Assembly: GCA_046563655.1 (NCBI GenBank)
Contig: CM102288.1
Coordinates: 3,224,001 to 3,288,000 of the forward strand
Length of the DNA: 64,000 nucleotides
Direction: 5' to 3'
Source: Yuukianura sp. NJ FZ-2021
Taxonomy: Eukaryota
This document shows positions 16,301-34,300 of this stretch, piece by piece. The translations under genes were made by a program, and so were the position numbers. The notes under the pieces were generated by a model that was not told the origin of the DNA, did not search any database, and saw only the letters and a list, made by a program, of their open reading frames with translations. Numbering within the stretch: position 1 is the stretch's first letter; each line of letters starts with the position of its first letter.

Positions 16301-19300
16301 ACCCCACACTCTTGACAACATTTACGACAAAAGCCAAGGTACTTTGACTCAGGACAAGGGGACTCAAGGGGGACTTGTGACCTTGAAAGGTCAAGGTCAT
16401 CTCGTGTCCATTGTCTCTTTCCTTCTGCTTGGCACTTCTTTAACTAACCACACAGTTACTAGAGCCTTTACACAAGCACTGAAACGTTCAAAATTTAAAA
16501 ATTTATTTTAAAACTACAAATTTCTTTAAGTAGTTTCAAGATTAGCTTGGTTGTTCTGAATTTTAAAAAAGGGGGTTCGAATTTAAAAAACCGTTTTTGA
16601 AAAAGTAGCTGCTACTGGATTTTCATGATGCTGAAGCACTAAACATAAATCTAAAATGTGTGCACGGAGTGTTCCATAGAGCTGACTCTAAGCATAGCGT
16701 TGTGTTCCGTTAGTAATTGGATGTAATTGCCTTGTAATTAAGTACTTTGCACTTTCTCTTTTTTGCTTTCACCTTTTGCCTAACCTTGAGCCGTTTTAAT
16801 TACAAAAGTACTCCAAAAAATAATTCAGAATTGAGTTTTTTTTTATTATACACGCAAATTGCATAATTACTCAAAAAATTAACTCTGTTGTAACATGCTC
16901 TCTCTCCATTACTTTGTAAATCAAGAACAATTACTTGTAATTCAATTACTTGAACTTTTGACTTTAGCAAACAAAAAGTACCGTGGGAAAAAGGGGCTGC
17001 GGAACGTGTCCAACTCCGATTCGGATCTTGCTCGACATAGAATCTCACTCATTGATACCAAGGAAATCAGATCTCGTGAGAGAGACAAAAAGTCACCGTC
17101 TCTCAGCAATCTTACACATCAAGAAGGGGTTTCGAGATACAAGGTAAAGAGTAATTAATTAGTTTACTTAACTAAAAATATTTCATTAAAATTAATGAGA
17201 AGTTGAACAGATTTCCCGTATTAATTACCATCGTAGGCTAATGCGAAAAGTGTTTGGCGTGAGTTTTCTAAGCATCGTAACCAATCATTCAGACTTGCCC
17301 GTTGAGACAGGGTCAAAGTTCACGAGTTCTTTATTTACAGTTTAAACTTTGGCCGGGCGACTTGAGAATTTTTCTTACTGTATATCTCTCCTTAAACAGG
17401 CAAATATTTTCAAAATTTCTGTATTTTTTTTCAGATGTCAATTCAAGAAAACGGTTCTGGGAAGTTTCTGCAAGGAGTGAAAGTCGGGGAGAAAGTCGCT
17501 CAGGTAAGATCACCTCTTTTGATTTAGTTTTTGATTTTATCGAAAAATTTCGAAATTTTGAAAACCAAAATTGGTTTTCACTGACCACCGACCACCCTAT
17601 CAATTGAAGTTGACCTAGCACGAGGTCAAAGCTAAAATACAACGATGACGTTTGTACTTAATTAGATTTGGTTTTGTTGAATTTTATGGCAAAAGTGGAT
17701 GGAAATATGAATGTCTTCTTGAGTATTTTGTCACTTTTTGGAAAATTGCAATTCTGAAAAAACCGAAAATTGTTTTGAGGGATCTTTGTCACCTTACCGT
17801 GACAAACGGAAGGTGAAAAGTGAAAGGTCAAAGGTCACTACCTGGTGATGATTAAGTTATTAGTGGCTGTAAAGTTGCGGTAGTAAAAACCCCAGGGAGA
17901 AAGTGAAATTGGGTTAAGAGATGACTGGTAGCATATGGCTTTCTTATCTTTGCGTTCGGATCTTTTGGTAGCCGCCGCGTTTTCCCTCACCGCCGCCGTG
18001 TTTTTACGAGGAGAGAGTGGAGAAAGTTGTGGGGCATGAATAATGGATTTGGACTTTAACTTTTTTCTTTTGCCCCGCACTGCAGGGAATCAGATTCCTC
18101 GGTTCCAGAACCAAGGAAAAGCAATGGCATTCCTCCAAGCTCTAAGCAAGGACAAAACAGAGATCCCCATTGAAAGTTGAGCTCCTTATACTTTTCAAAC
18201 GGGACTCTGCGTGCGGTTCCTGGAAGGGGGTTGCTGTTGCCTTGCTTTTCCAGATTTTATTTGCGCAGCGACAGCAAACTGAGCGGTCACTCTTTTACCA
18301 AAAACCGAAAAGACTTTGTGTGCTGCTGAGGCTGCGAACTCTCCCCGAAGACTTGCCCTCGTCGGAGTGTGCTAAAAAGAAATTATTGTGTAACTTTTTT
18401 TTAAAAAGAAAAAATTGAGGGCAACTCTGTAGTAAAACTGGGACGCTTAGGTTGTGCAGAGTGGCGACTGGCGACTAGTCACCGCCAGTCTGAGCTGGAA
18501 GGAGCTTCTTCTTCCAGGACCAAAAAAAGACATGCAACTTTTGGTCCAAATTGAGCCAAACACTTTCTCTCTTTTGAAAAAAGTGCCTCGAGGGTAGAAA
18601 AAGTTCAATTTTTTCAAATTTTGGGAACAAGGACCAGGCATTCTCAAAAATTCGATATTGGAGTTTGACAAAAATTCCAAATTTGGCTTCCGGGAGATCA
18701 AAAGTCGTGACATTTTTTTGGAATGTCGTCAAACGTGACTTGATTTGAGTGATTTTTGAGAAAAAAAGTTTAACGAATTTTCGTAAATTTTGAAAAATAC
18801 TCCTGAAGCGATGGACCCAGCGGGAAGACGCAAGTCTTTACAGCCCACTGCGACCACTTCGGTTCAAATCCAGCCCGATCCGAATTCGGTAAAAAGTTTA
18901 CCGGTTCGTCGTGGTTCTAAATTACCGACACCGCTGGCCCACCCGAGTGGACGACGGTTCAGTTTTCAACCACTGCTGTCTGGAGCTATAAGTCAAGCAC
19001 TCAAAAGTCCACGGCCTGGACGGTTCCTTAGCAGACCAAGTCACAGTCACGGCGGTAACCACGTGACAGTAGCTCTAGGCTATCCTAGAGTCATCACATC
19101 CAGTGTCGACGAGGAAGATGGTGGAGAAACTTCTGCAGGAGCAGAGATTAGTTCTCATAGTGTTGAGTACCAAGATCTCCAGCCTCAGTCTGAATCGCTC
19201 TACCACCATGTGTATGACCCAGTGTCATTGACCTATGACACGGGCAAGTCACGCAGGAAGTCCATTGCAGGGGCAGCCCTTAAGGCCCTCTCGTCCATAA

Positions 19301-31300: not shown

Positions 31301-34300
31301 AAATTAGACAAAATTTTTTTTTTTTAAATTTTGAAAAAAAGAAGAGAAAAAATGAAGCTTTTTTTTTCATATTCTCCTTTCAATGTTTCCGTTTTGTTCG
31401 CTTTCTCAACCTAATGAACTTCTTATGGCTTTTACTTGGTTTATTGTTAAAACCTGAAATTTTTAGTTTCACAATTCCAAAAAATCTTTTCACTTTCAAA
31501 ATTTTTGATTATCTATTTTGAATTTTGTTTTGTTTACTTCTTCCTGCTGCTGCAATTTTTAAAGTGAGCATTTGGCTCCGGACGGTGTTGGCGAAGATTG
31601 GAACCTAATTCCTCCACTCCCTGTCCAGGTACACGTCTTAAGGCATAGATTTCTGGTTAGGTTAAGCTAGTAGGTTTTCGTTAGGTTAAGTCACAAGGTT
31701 ATTGGTTAGGTTAAGTTATTGGATCAACTGAAACGATTGTTTCTGTCTTACGTCTTACTCTAGACCAGGTCAAAGGTGAATTGGCTTTCTAAATCACTTT
31801 CTTCCCTTTTCCCATCGGAACTCCCATTTTTTGATGTCTTTTTTGTTCATTACTTTCCCGATTAGGTTAGGGTCCCTCTGTGACACTCCTCTGTCCTGGT
31901 GGGAGTCTGAATTATGAAAAGGGCTTCAATCAATACTAGTCAAATAAAAGTTTCCTTTTCTGGAATCCACTTTTCACCGTTTTGGGCAAAAGAAAAGCAA
32001 GTTTTAGAAAAACATCAATTTTGAAACAACATAAAAAGAAAGTCCTTTTTGTGGCGTTCGGTGGGAAATGTACAGTTTGTTTCAAATTTATTAACTGCGG
32101 GCTTTCCCTTTTTAGTTTTATGTTTAAAAGCCTTTTTTTTTTCAAAAAAGTTTTATCACTTGACTATAATTTATGAAAAATTGGGGGGCTGGGGGGGTGA
32201 AAGTCGCATGTCTTTTTTTTTTTTGTGCTGACGTGACAAACGCGGTACGCGACTTAGAAGGTAGATTTTTTTTTGGAATTGAACGTTTGAAACTTTCTCT
32301 GCACTGCGCAAAAAGCTTCCTTTTTCAGCATCTTTTGGAAACTTTTTTTTGTAAGTACTCAATCCATTTCCATGATAATTGATGTGTCCGGTGACCTCGA
32401 GGAGGAAGGGCACCCTAGAGGTCATCTGGTGACCTGCACTTATCAATTTCCGTTAAGATAAGCTTTAAGATACCATTTGGAGTCAATTTGAACGACTCAA
32501 TGCTCAAGACATTTAAAGTGTGACGTGTTTGACATGAAAATTGAGGGAGGAGAAAAAGTTTTTTGAAGGGAACAAATTTTCTCTCTCAAGAGTTTCAGAA
32601 TTGAAAAAAGAAGACGCCAAAAAGTTTTCAAATCAAAAATTGTACTTGAAAATTTCCGAGTTTTTGGGACTAAAGAAAGGTCATAAGATCAGGCTGACCT
32701 TTTGAGTGACCTTTCAGTTTTTTGTTATCGAAATTGCAAAATTTTGAAAATGGGAAGTTACAGGAGCCTGGCCACACTAGCTTCTTTGTCCGACTTGAAT
32801 CGAAATCGATTTAGTTCGTTTCATGTAAGGTGGTCTGTTTTTAGTCTTTTACTGCCCGGGGAAAGGTCAAAGGTCATGTAATTAAAAGTAATTGAATTGT
32901 GTTTGTAATTGATTGGCAGGTTCTGTCGCTTGGAGCTGATGTGCTGCCGGAGTATCGGTTACAGTCTCCTCGGATACACAAATGGACCATTCTGCACTAC
33001 TCTCCGTTCAAGGCCGTTTGGGATTGGCTCATTTTGATTCTCGTGATGTACACGGCCATTGTGACGCCGTACGTTGCCTCTTTCCATCTCTCCGAACCTG
33101 GTTATGGGAAACAGGATCAACCAGACGCGTCACTCGGAGAAGATCCGATCGAAATTGTCGATTTTATTGGTAAAGAGAAAGCTTTTGTCCACAAAATTGA
33201 CTTCTTTTTTTAGAAATTCTAAGAAGATTTAGTTGAAAAGAGCCGATTTTCCTGTAGTTTTTTTGTATCGTGATTTTTGAGTTCAGGAATCCCAGAAAAG
33301 AGCTTTTTTTTTTAGAAAGGAAAGTTTCAGTGAAAGCTTTTCTTCTAGCTAGAGGATTTCGAAAATAGGATTTGAGTTTTACTAAAAAAAATTGATTTTG
33401 TGATGATTTTATTTTGTGTTTGCAGTTGACGTGATGTTCATAGTGGACATTTTGATTAACTTCCGGACAACTTATGTGAATGCGAATGACGAAGTTGTGT
33501 CCAATCCAGGACGAATTGCTATTCACTACTTTAGGGGGTGGTTCATCATTGACCTCGTGGCGGCCATTCCATTTGACATGCTCCTCCACTACCTCGATTC
33601 CAATTCAGATGAGGTAACACTCATAGCAACTTAATTAACTAACGAGGACTGGCTCTTGGCCGTTTTTCGAAATCTGAAATTCTGAAACCCGGAAGTGGTT
33701 TCTCATTGTCCAAAAACACTTTTGGCACCATTCCCGTATCACAACGCGAAAAAAAAAGAATTCGACCCGGGGTGGAATTGAACACCTGTCGGGCGAAACG
33801 GCGAAAGTGACCTTTTTCGGGGTGGGGGCTCTATCCCCCGGACTACAACAAAGATCACAAAGTCCACCCCTAGAAAATTAGTTTTTCATGCGCACAGGAA
33901 GCGGAAACAGTGAAAGTAAGTTTGAAACAATTTTTCAAATTAAAAGTTTAACGATTATAATTGATAACGACACTAATTGCTTTTAACATTCAAAGAGGAG
34001 CGTTGTACAACAAACAAATTACGATCTTCCTCCGTTTTGCGCCGATATTCAACGTTTATCAAATTTAATATCCCAGTTATATCAAAGTGCCAAACTTTCG
34101 TCTTAAATCTTATCAACTTTAACTTTTAGTCAATTTTTGAAAGTTAACATTTTTTGGAAGATTCGCACTCTGTAATGTGGTAATCGAAAAAGCAGCACGA
34201 AAAACAAAATATCGTATGACAATGACTACATCTAATGAAACGACTTTCTTTTTGGCATTTGTTACAAATCGGTGAGTCTCCTTTCTTCCAGTGAAAGCAA

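What the first reader, a model, noticed from the sequence alone, without database searches (positions are those of the whole stretch)
17504..32919. ERG channel intron holds a cassette of at least five alternative PAS-less N-termini
Seen: the 15.4 kb intron between EKVAQ and [12 protein letters not shown] contains separate ATG-initiated exons (18811-19707, 22345-22491, 25370-25804, 30716-31245+31565-31628, 32750-32824). Each ends in a phase-0 GT donor that fits the single acceptor at 32920. Known: vertebrate ERG1b arises from an internal promoter and joins at this same [12 protein letters not shown] junction, and loss of PAS speeds deactivation. Inference: this gene uses a multi-promoter array to swap unrelated N-termini of 25-299 aa onto one pore module, far more than the 1a/1b pair.
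Basis: partly seen in the sequence, partly recalled or inferred. Interest (0 to 1): 0.75.

Follow-up and report, generated by a model that had tools for sequence, protein, structure and literature searches.

The report
Alternative first exons of an ERG channel
A long intron of an arthropod ERG potassium-channel gene carries several alternative start exons that would make channel subunits lacking the PAS gating domain, an arrangement already known for this gene family in mammals, nematodes and insects.

Summary
The window holds an ERG (KCNH2/seizure/unc-103-type) K+ channel gene on the + strand. Its closest named relatives are springtail proteins. The 15,416-nt intron (17504-32919) lies between the exon ending GEKVAQ and the exon starting [12 protein letters not shown].

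All five ATG-initiated ORFs with GT donors exist exactly as described. Their support differs:
- **C (25370-25804):** the conserved hexapod PAS-less N-terminus. It is joined to VLSLGADV in annotated springtail, wasp, ant and mosquito proteins.
- **A (18811-19707):** matches the N-terminus of a second PAS-less ERG protein of Orchesella dallaii.
- **D1 (30716-31245):** a widely conserved exon whose phase-2 donor is also conserved. Its link to ERG, and the bridging mini-exon 31565-31628, are inferred.
- **E (32750-32824):** only motif-level support.
- **B (22345-22491):** no support. ORFs of B's and E's size with an in-phase donor are expected by chance.

The principle is already known from mammalian ERG1a/1b/1c, C. 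elegans unc-103 isoforms A-F and multi-isoform insect annotations. This is a new member of a known kind, of modest interest.

The parts
4368..4443 (+). First coding exon of the PAS-containing ('1a-like') ERG isoform (starts MPIRKGH)
   Evidence: tblastn of Folsomia candida P0006 residues 1-29, 72% identity. Donor GTCAAA|gtaagt.
8559..8789 (+). PAS-domain exon of the long isoform
   Evidence: Pfam PAS_9, 28.4 bits against a cut-off of 27, on 8561-8788. tblastn 63% identity to P0006 residues 26-103.
12998..17143 (+). Remaining PAS-end and linker exons of the long isoform. Roughly 12998-13266, pieces within 13994-14461 and 15302-15745, and 16979-17143. Inner boundaries are not resolved.
   Evidence: tblastn HSPs to P0006. 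Junction search. The linker exon 16979-17143 carries SDLARHRIS.
17435..17503 (+). Last exon specific to the long isoform (MSIQENG...GEKVAQ), phase-0 donor CAG|gtaaga
   Evidence: 87% identity to P0006 residues 384-405. 81 of 120 retrieved ERG proteins end this segment with GEKVAQ before V-LSLGADV.
17504..32919 (+). 15,416-nt intron that holds the alternative 5' exons
   Evidence: Junction search. No repeat of any part of it elsewhere in the window by blastn at 1e-5.
18811..19707 (+). Alternative first coding exon A, 299 aa, phase-0 donor gtatgc
   Evidence: 312-codon open frame. BLASTP to the N-terminus of O. dallaii PAS-less ERG P0014: 27/59 identical, E 6e-6. Smith-Waterman score 96 against 42.6+-6.9 for shuffles, 0 of 500 reach it. 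Highest summed codon score of 517 intron ORFs.
22345..22491 (+). Candidate first exon B, 49 aa, donor gtaaaa: unsupported
   Evidence: ORF plus donor of this size is expected about 1.5 times by chance. No BLAST hit at E<=10 among 120 ERG proteins. Codon score 0.141 per codon, just above the 95th percentile of background ORFs. Atlas search gave only noise.
25370..25804 (+). Alternative first coding exon C, 145 aa, donor gtaaag: the conserved hexapod PAS-less ('1b-like') N-terminus
   Evidence: 44.5% identity over 128 aa to residues 9-117 of O. dallaii P0011, E 1e-19; shuffle z 29. Same end ...[12 protein letters not shown]. The block KWSxVxV...ENxx...KE is shared with wasp, ant and mosquito PAS-less isoforms.
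30716..31245 (+). Alternative first coding exon D1, 176 codons + 2 nt, phase-2 donor CAG|gtattc
   Evidence: 211-codon open frame. phmmer against 1.84 billion representatives gave 12 hits at E<=1e-3, best 1.5e-27 at 54% identity. 11 of the 12 carry the MFNS(A/G)A... motif: 10 at residue 1, one (P0123) at residue 28. Conservation runs to ...(D/E)R(Y/F)S, the read-through of the same AG|GTAT donor.
31565..31628 (+). Inferred 64-nt bridging exon D2, which restores phase 0 before 32920
   Evidence: Needed because D1 joined directly to 32920 runs into a stop (frame 32909-33037). It is 1 of 80 mechanical candidates and 1 of 9 with a pyrimidine tract and a GTR/GTA donor. GC 0.56 against 0.32 in the flanks; codon score 0.351. 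No homolog found.
32750..32824 (+). Candidate first exon E, 25 aa, donor gtaagg, 95 nt upstream of the common acceptor: weakly supported
   Evidence: Length is at chance level. It carries SDLNRNRFS. The pattern S[DE]L.[RK].R.[ST] occurs only twice in the six-frame translation of the window, the other copy being the long-isoform linker exon. 7/11 identity to that linker motif is reached by 13 of 5000 shuffles and 0 of 473 intron ORF windows. The pattern was chosen post hoc.
32920..33169 (+). Common acceptor exon ([12 protein letters not shown]..., start of the S1 region) shared by all isoforms
   Evidence: 81% identity to F. candida P0006. Acceptor ttggcag|GTTCTG.
33426..39940 (+). Remaining common exons (S1-S6 pore module, cyclic-nucleotide-binding homology region, C-terminus)
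   Evidence: tblastn to P0006, P0011, P0014, P0005 and P0010, 62-100% identity per exon. Pfam Ion_trans on 33419-33625 and 35728-35886.

Best explanation
This is the ERG-subfamily K+ channel gene (orthologue of KCNH2/6/7, Drosophila seizure, C. elegans unc-103) of an arthropod, most likely a springtail.

The long isoform starts at 4368, encodes a PAS/eag domain and a disordered linker, and ends its specific part at 17503 (...GEKVAQ). The next intron (17504-32919) contains alternative 5' coding exons. Each starts with its own ATG and splices, directly or through one mini-exon, to the single acceptor at 32920. This replaces the PAS domain and linker with a short or long unrelated cytoplasmic N-terminus on the same S1-S6/CNBHD module.

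- **Shown here:** A, C and D1 are conserved protein-coding exons. The C-type and A-type N-termini are joined to VLSLGADV in annotated proteins of other hexapods.
- **Inferred:** each exon has its own transcription start. D1 reaches 32920 through 31565-31628. E is used.
- **Inferred from established ERG biology** (ERG1a versus 1b/1c, PMC9113952 passages): PAS-less subunits deactivate and activate faster, and can co-assemble with PAS subunits. Promoter choice would then tune channel kinetics by cell type.

B is probably a chance ORF.
For: **Gene identity.**
- 3066 proteins with E<=0.001 among 3215 candidates. The best named ones are ERG/KCNH2/6/7/unc-103/seizure proteins of Collembola and Hymenoptera.
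- PAS_9 and Ion_trans Pfam hits.
- Exon map by tblastn.

**Exon C.**
- E 1e-19 to the N-terminus of PAS-less O. dallaii ERG P0011, with the identical junction.
- Same class in 10 further PAS-less proteins of wasps, ants and mosquitoes.

**Exon A.**
- E 6e-6 pairwise; 0 of 500 shuffles reach the score.
- The match is specific to P0014 and absent against P0011.
- P0011 and P0014 are identical over the first 518 residues after the junction. I read them as isoforms of one gene; the call does not show that.

**Exon D1.**
- 11 homologous N-terminal ORFs, best E 1.5e-27.
- Invariant residues include M1 F2 N3 S4 and R12 S14 S15 Q16 L17.
- The donor read-through is conserved.
- tblastn places all 11 on 30716-31057.

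**Chance controls.**

**Composition.**
- All five have the highest codon score in frame 0.
- Codon score: A and D1 exceed the 99th percentile of 321 background ORFs; C lies between the 95th and 99th.
- GC: A, C and D1 are 0.52-0.56, against about 0.3-0.4 for most 200-nt windows of the intron.

**Other.** No PAS or other Pfam domain in A-E.
Against: - There is no transcript evidence for this window. No junction, start site or promoter could be tested.
- Searches for longer proteins containing A (8000 candidates scored) and D1 (3419 candidates) found none. No full-length ERG protein retrieved here carries a D1-type N-terminus, and all D1 homologs are short single-exon ORF predictions without names.
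- D2 has no homolog, a weak donor (gtacac) and competitors.
- B has no support beyond a borderline codon score. That score largely tracks GC content: overlapping frames in GC-rich exons also score high.
- E's motif test was defined after seeing the match. The BLAST E-values for E were 0.46 or worse.
- The A match covers only 59 of 299 residues.
Confidence: 0.72

Rival explanations
1. Only the two N-termini seen in annotated springtail proteins (C and A) are ERG first exons. D1 is the first exon of a separate conserved small gene or transcript nested in the intron. B and E are chance ORFs.
For: - All 11 D1 homologs are short stand-alone predictions. None is fused to an ERG core.
- The longer-protein search for D1 found nothing.
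- D1 cannot join 32920 in frame without an unverified mini-exon.
- B and E are at chance level.
Against: - The homolog ORFs all stop shortly after reading through a conserved phase-2 splice donor, so D1 is a 5' exon of a spliced mRNA, not a complete gene.
- It lies on the ERG strand, 1.7 kb upstream of the ERG acceptor. No other + strand coding exons follow except ERG's own.
- The representative library keeps one protein per 50% cluster, so full-length isoforms carrying it could be hidden.
Confidence: 0.18
2. All five, including B and E, are used first exons with their own promoters.
For: - All five have an A-rich context before the ATG, GT donors, and frame 0 as the best-scoring frame.
- B scores above the 95th percentile of background ORFs, and a GC-richer block lies 300-500 nt upstream of it.
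- E carries the linker-type SDLxRxRxS motif.
Against: - ORFs of 49 and 25 aa with a phase-0 donor are expected 1.5 and 5.6 times by chance.
- Four similar unlisted ORFs exist on the same strand.
- B has no hit at E<=10 in 120 ERG proteins and none in the Atlas.
- The promoter motif scan is uninformative.
Confidence: 0.12
3. The ORFs are not exons of ERG at all. They would be relics of transposons, pseudo-exons or gene-prediction artefacts.
For: - None has a Pfam domain.
- The N-termini are low-complexity, Ser/Pro/Gly/Thr-rich sequences.
Against: - C and A are homologous to N-termini of annotated ERG proteins with the same junction.
- D1 is conserved in 11 proteins.
- No part of the intron is repeated in the window.
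- ORFs of 312, 211 and 161 codons occur here, while only 0.07 ATG-to-donor ORFs of >=100 aa are expected by chance.
Confidence: 0.02

Closest known systems
Mammalian KCNH2 alternate transcripts ERG1a / ERG1b / ERG1c
   Same: Subunit-specific promoters. ERG1b starts in an intron with a single specific exon that replaces the PAS-encoding exons and gives a short PAS-deficient N-terminus with faster kinetics (PMC9113952, passages read). In the window the alternative exons also lie in the intron just before the first exon of the transmembrane core.
   Different: Mammals have one such internal exon at this position (1b), plus 1c in an earlier intron. Here two to four unrelated exons (25-299 aa) share the position. 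That the mammalian 1b junction is the same VLSLGADV boundary is recalled, not tested here.
C. elegans unc-103 (ERG) isoforms A-F
   Same: One ERG gene with many isoform-specific 5' ends and tissue-specific expression. Isoform-specific forward primers are used with one universal reverse primer, and unc-103E and unc-103F promoters are named (PMC8968053 passages; PMC2432499 passages). They cite Reiner et al. 2006, which I did not see.
   Different: The worm gene has lost the eag/PAS domain altogether (PMC9989356 passages citing Martinson et al. 2014). The window's gene keeps a PAS isoform alongside the PAS-less ones. No sequence comparison with unc-103 N-termini was made.
Annotated insect and springtail ERG isoforms (Orchesella dallaii P0011/P0014; Hymenoptera 'unc-103 / KCNH2/6/7 isoform X..' models; Anopheles models)
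   Same: The C-type N-terminus and junction are shared. The A-type is shared with O. dallaii P0014. Hymenopteran models show several N-termini per gene: PAS, MPHYLL-, MVS-, MSCDAE- and MTCIKS-type.
   Different: Most hymenopteran alternative starts join upstream of the GEKVAQ exon, not at VLSLGADV. No retrieved full-length model has a D1-, B- or E-type N-terminus. These are computed gene models; I saw no experimental support for them.
Drosophila seizure (sei) ERG channel
   Same: A PAS-less ERG channel. Fly and worm Erg independently lost the eag domain (PMC9989356 passages).
   Different: Whether sei's N-terminus corresponds to the C- or D1-type exon was not tested. The 1997 sei papers were not held, and the 2019 sei paper has nothing on isoforms (passages).

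Membership tests
ERG subfamily of KCNH (EAG-family) K+ channels | N-terminal eag/PAS domain | tested here: met
   Pfam PAS_9, 28.4 bits (cut-off 27), on exon 8561-8788. Aligns to F. candida ERG residues 26-103.
ERG subfamily of KCNH (EAG-family) K+ channels | Six-transmembrane voltage-gated pore module (Ion_trans) | tested here: met
   Pfam Ion_trans, 29.7 bits (cut-off 25), on 33419-33625 and 20.6 bits on 35728-35886. 96-98% identity of 35728-35886 to springtail ERG.
ERG subfamily of KCNH (EAG-family) K+ channels | C-terminal cyclic-nucleotide-binding homology domain | tested here: inconclusive
   Single short exons 37598-37747 and 38258-38389 gave no Pfam hit. They align at 87-100% to ERG proteins whose precomputed Pfam includes PF00027.
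ERG subfamily of KCNH (EAG-family) K+ channels | Closest relatives are ERG rather than EAG or ELK proteins | tested here: met
   The named entries among the 120 best listed hits, as far as I read them, are KCNH2/6/7, unc-103, seizure or Erg. Some are unnamed or carry only generic names. No tree was built.
ERG1b-type internal-promoter PAS-less isoform | Isoform-specific first coding exon inside the intron preceding the first core exon, splicing in frame to that exon | tested here: met
   Met mechanically for A, B, C and E directly, and for D through a mini-exon. Met by homology to annotated proteins with the same junction for C and A.
ERG1b-type internal-promoter PAS-less isoform | No PAS domain in the alternative N-terminus | tested here: met
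   0 Pfam families at E<=0.1 for A, B, C, D1 and E.
ERG1b-type internal-promoter PAS-less isoform | Own transcription start site or promoter | not testable with these tools
   The Inr/TATA/DPE scan gave 1 combination on the + strand against 1 on the control strand. CAGE or 5' RACE is needed.
ERG1b-type internal-promoter PAS-less isoform | Faster activation and deactivation than the PAS isoform | not testable with these tools
   Electrophysiology is needed. The expectation rests on PMC9113952 (passages).
unc-103-type multi-first-exon array (three or more alternative N-termini on one core) | Three or more distinct first exons shown to be spliced to the common exon | tested here: inconclusive
   Two (C, A) are supported by annotated orthologous proteins. 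D1 is conserved but its link is inferred. E is weak and B unsupported.

The most novel reading that the evidence does not exclude
The locus would run at least four internal promoters (A, C, D1, E). The D1 exon family ([25 protein letters not shown]..) would be an ancient hexapod ERG N-terminus that is missing from every full-length ERG model retrieved here. The PAS-less N-terminal exons would then predate the loss of the eag domain in flies. That loss would have happened simply by dropping the upstream PAS promoter and exons while keeping the pre-existing internal-promoter isoforms. The mini-exon E would keep only the conserved SDLxRxRxS linker motif as a minimal regulatory N-terminus.
Probability: 0.3. 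Interest if true: 0.45.

Novelty: new member of a known kind. Interest (0 to 1): 0.3.

Why it matters
ERG channels set repolarisation and excitability, and their PAS/eag domain controls slow deactivation. Swapping it out through internal promoters is a known way to tune kinetics by cell type. This window shows that a basal hexapod keeps a PAS isoform together with several PAS-less alternatives in one intron. Two of the PAS-less N-termini (C-type, D1-type) are conserved across hexapods. That helps annotate arthropod ERG genes correctly, since the short exons are easily missed or split into orphan ORFs. It also offers a simple route for the reported loss of the eag domain in flies. It does not reveal a new mechanism.

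Tried and rejected
- **Nematode origin.** I first suspected a nematode unc-103 locus because of the tttcag acceptors. The best hits are Collembola and insects, so I dropped this.
- **Longer-protein searches.** Word-index searches for longer proteins containing A and D1 found nothing. The tool itself calls this weak evidence.
- **ESM Atlas.** D1 gave no usable hit. B gave scores of 0.78 or lower to bacterial hypothetical clusters, which is noise.
- **Codon-usage score.** It separates A, C and D1 from background, but it mostly tracks GC content: off-frame and antisense ORFs inside the same exons also rank high. 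It cannot settle B or E.
- **Core-promoter motifs.** Inr+DPE or TATA+Inr combinations: 1 on the + strand against 1 on the control strand. Uninformative.
- **E as an internal exon fed by D1.** I considered an acceptor cctttcag ending at 32717. From the sequence, that exon would be 107 nt, which does not fit D1's phase, so I rejected it.
- **A shorter D exon.** D has a phase-0 donor at 31087. Homolog conservation continues to the 31245 donor, so I rejected the shorter version.
- **D2 versus hymenopteran N-termini.** Only a 7-residue resemblance at E 2.8. Not used.
- **Literature.** The 1997 Drosophila sei papers are not held. The search 'unc-103' + 'first exons' + 'promoter' found 0 papers.
- **Not searched.** Conservation of the exons at DNA level in related genomes therefore stayed unchecked. 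No supplementary files were consulted.

Full report
**What the window holds**

The + strand carries an ERG-subfamily K+ channel gene from about 4368 to about 39940.
- A search with the exon that starts at 32920 gave 3066 proteins with E<=0.001 among 3215 candidates.
- The best named hits are ERG/KCNH2/6/7/unc-103/seizure proteins. They come from springtails (Folsomia candida 81% identity, Orchesella and Allacma 76-77%) and from Hymenoptera (75-76%).
- No identical protein was in the collection.
- I infer an arthropod, probably a springtail. My first guess of a nematode was wrong.

tblastn of five springtail proteins maps the gene.
- **PAS isoform:** exons at 4368-4443 and 8559-8789. Pfam PAS_9 scores 28.4 bits there against a cut-off of 27.
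- **Linker exons:** up to 16979-17143.
- **Last long-isoform exon:** 17435-17503, MSIQENG...GEKVAQ.
- **Common core:** starts at 32920 ([12 protein letters not shown]...), with Ion_trans hits.
- A junction search gives CAG|gtaaga after 17503 and ttggcag| before 32920. The intron is 15,416 nt.

**Check of the observation**

All five ORFs, their ATGs, lengths, phases and GT donors are exactly as described. What differs among them is how far each exceeds chance.

I ran 300 first-order Markov simulations of the intron, trained with the candidate regions masked.

| ATG-ORF ending at a phase-0 GTRA/GTATG donor | Expected | Observed |
|---|---|---|
| >=25 aa | 5.6 | 9 |
| >=49 aa | 1.5 | 5 |
| >=100 aa | 0.07 | 3 |

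- The minus strand of the same intron gives 8 such start/donor combinations of >=20 aa, the longest 77 aa.
- The plus strand holds four more unlisted ORFs of 30-60 aa.
- A (299 aa), C (145 aa) and D (open for 211 codons) are therefore non-random. B (49 aa) and E (25 aa) are not, on these criteria.

**Exon C (25370-25804)**

- It matches residues 9-117 of P0011, a 956-aa PAS-less ERG protein of Orchesella dallaii, at 44.5% identity over 128 aa with E 1e-19. The shuffle z-score is 29.
- Both end ...IGKE and continue with VLSLGADV.
- The same terminal block (KWSxVxV...ENxx...KE|V) is found in PAS-less isoforms of wasps and ants, in mosquito proteins, and in a partial Aedes protein.
- C is therefore the conserved hexapod PAS-less N-terminus. 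Its junction to the common exon is documented in gene models of other species.

**Exon A (18811-19707)**

- It matches the N-terminus of P0014, a second PAS-less O. dallaii ERG protein of 1127 aa whose N-terminus is 297 aa. The match is 27/59 identical with pairwise E 6e-6.
- The Smith-Waterman score is 96, against 42.6+-6.9 for shuffles. 0 of 500 shuffles reach it.
- The pairing is specific. A against the P0011 N-terminus, and C against the P0014 N-terminus, are not significant.
- P0011 and P0014 are identical over the first 518 residues after the junction. I read them as two isoforms of one gene; the call does not show that.
- Against this, the match covers only a fifth of A. The large-collection search for longer proteins also found nothing.

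**Exon D (30716-31245 plus 31565-31628)**

- A phmmer scan of 1.84 billion representatives with D1 gave 12 hits at E<=1e-3 and 4 at E<=1e-10. The best is E 1.5e-27 at 54% identity.
- 11 of the 12 are homologs carrying the MFNS(A/G)A... motif, 10 at residue 1 and one (P0123) at residue 28. The twelfth is a low-complexity hit.
- They share [19 protein letters not shown] and ELPILNP blocks.
- All are short (145-393 aa) unnamed ORF-type predictions.
- Their conservation continues to ...(D/E)R(Y/F)S, which in the window is the read-through of CAG|gtattc at 31245.
- D1 cannot join 32920 in frame. It needs an exon of length 1 mod 3.
- 80 such exons are mechanically possible, and 9 have a pyrimidine tract and a GTR/GTA donor. 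31565-31628 is the GC-rich one with a good codon score, but it has no homolog.
- No full-length ERG protein in hand begins with the D1 motif, and the longer-protein search found none.
- So D1 is a real, old 5' exon. Its membership of ERG rests on strand and position.

**Exons E and B**

*Exon E (32750-32824)*
- It has a good donor (gtaagg) and sits 95 nt from the acceptor.
- It contains SDLNRNRFS. The pattern S[DE]L.[RK].R.[ST] occurs only twice in the six-frame translation of the 64-kb window. The other copy is SDLARHRIS in the long-isoform linker exon, a motif also present in Folsomia and Hymenoptera ERG.
- The 7/11 identity is reached by 13 of 5000 shuffles of E, and by 0 of 473 25-aa windows from other intron ORFs.
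- The pattern was defined after seeing the match, and BLAST E-values for E were 0.46 or worse. I treat this as suggestive only.

*Exon B (22345-22491)*
- It has no hit at E<=10 among 120 ERG proteins and only noise in the Atlas.
- Its codon score of 0.141 per codon is just above the 95th percentile (0.111) of 321 background ORFs.
- That score largely follows GC content.
- B is best regarded as unproven and probably chance.

**Other properties of the exons**

- None of A-E has any Pfam match at E<=0.1.
- They are not similar to one another or to the linker exons; the best E is 0.04.
- No part of the intron is repeated elsewhere in the window.
- GC-richer blocks lie a few hundred bases upstream of A, B, C and D. 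These may be leaders or promoters.
- A core-promoter motif scan was uninformative.

**Mechanism**

- **Shown:** there are at least two alternative PAS-less N-terminal coding exons, and probably three, in the intron before the first core exon.
- **Inferred:** each is transcribed from its own start site and spliced to 32920.
- **Inferred from ERG1 biology:** ERG1b and 1c start from their own promoters, lack a functional PAS domain, and have much faster activation, deactivation and recovery. They also co-assemble with ERG1a (PMC9113952, passages read). The choice of first exon would therefore set channel kinetics and regulation by cell type.

**Comparison with what is known**

- **Mammals:** three promoter-specific N-termini (PMC9113952, passages).
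- **C. elegans:** unc-103 has tissue-specific isoforms A-F, with primers for ten isoforms and a universal reverse primer (PMC8968053, passages). unc-103E and unc-103F promoters are named (PMC2432499, passages). Reiner et al. 2006, cited there, was not seen.
- **Fly and worm:** Erg is reported to have independently lost the eag domain (PMC9989356, passages citing Martinson et al. 2014).
- **Insect gene models:** the models run up to isoform X20 and show at least five N-terminal types. Most of these join upstream of the GEKVAQ exon rather than at VLSLGADV.

The multi-N-terminus design is therefore known, and this locus is a further example. The modestly new points are two:
- PAS and several PAS-less starts coexist in a basal hexapod.
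- The conserved D1 exon family was not attached to any full-length ERG model I retrieved.

**Verdict**

- Best estimate: three alternative N-termini (A, C, D) are real, a fourth (E) is possible, and B is doubtful.
- Novelty: new member of a known kind. Interest 0.3.

Noticed in passing
window-wide; e.g. 5449, 17825, 30689, 31132, 32864, 36100, 36287, 36752, 38201, 38208, 38436, 44593, 53446, 53620: The 13-mer AGGTCAAAGGTCA occurs 21 times at <=1 mismatch (14 exact), against 0.11 expected. It is two units of the heptamer AGGTCAA. It looks like a direct repeat of nuclear-receptor half-sites; that resemblance is recalled. The flanks are not conserved, and the hexamer AGGTCA occurs 65 and 68 times on the two strands. 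Several copies lie in short ERG introns 18-45 nt upstream of acceptors (36100, 36752, 38201/38208, 38436, 32864). One lies just upstream of the D1 ATG and one inside D1. Unexplained.
   Followed up: partly
33628-33849 and 35078-35299, with ORF 34144-34575 (-): Inverted repeat with 222-nt arms, 95% complementary, 1228 nt apart, inside the ERG intron 33614-35730. It encloses a minus-strand ORF with a weak Tc5-transposase C-terminal match, E 0.0064, below the cut-off. Probably a DNA-transposon insertion.
   Followed up: partly
41535-42487 (-): A two-RRM protein gene with a proline-rich tail, downstream of ERG on the opposite strand (RRM_1 E 2.7e-24). It resembles splicing factor 3B subunit 4; that name is recalled, not tested.
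   Followed up: no
43168-44054 (+) and 44856-45314 (-): A DUF1681 (NECAP-type) gene fragment, E 2.2e-25, and a TPR-repeat ORF on the minus strand. Ordinary neighbours.
   Followed up: no
P0112 and P0111 (ant ERG gene models): Two older ant gene models read on from GEKVAQ through several hundred extra residues before the C-type exon and VLSLGADV. This suggests that the orthologous ant intron also holds further coding-like exons that were chained by ab initio prediction.
   Followed up: no
17435-17503: The last long-isoform exon itself begins with ATG directly after its acceptor (ttttcag|ATGTCA). In principle it could also serve as a start if transcription began in the preceding intron. Not examined.
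   Followed up: no
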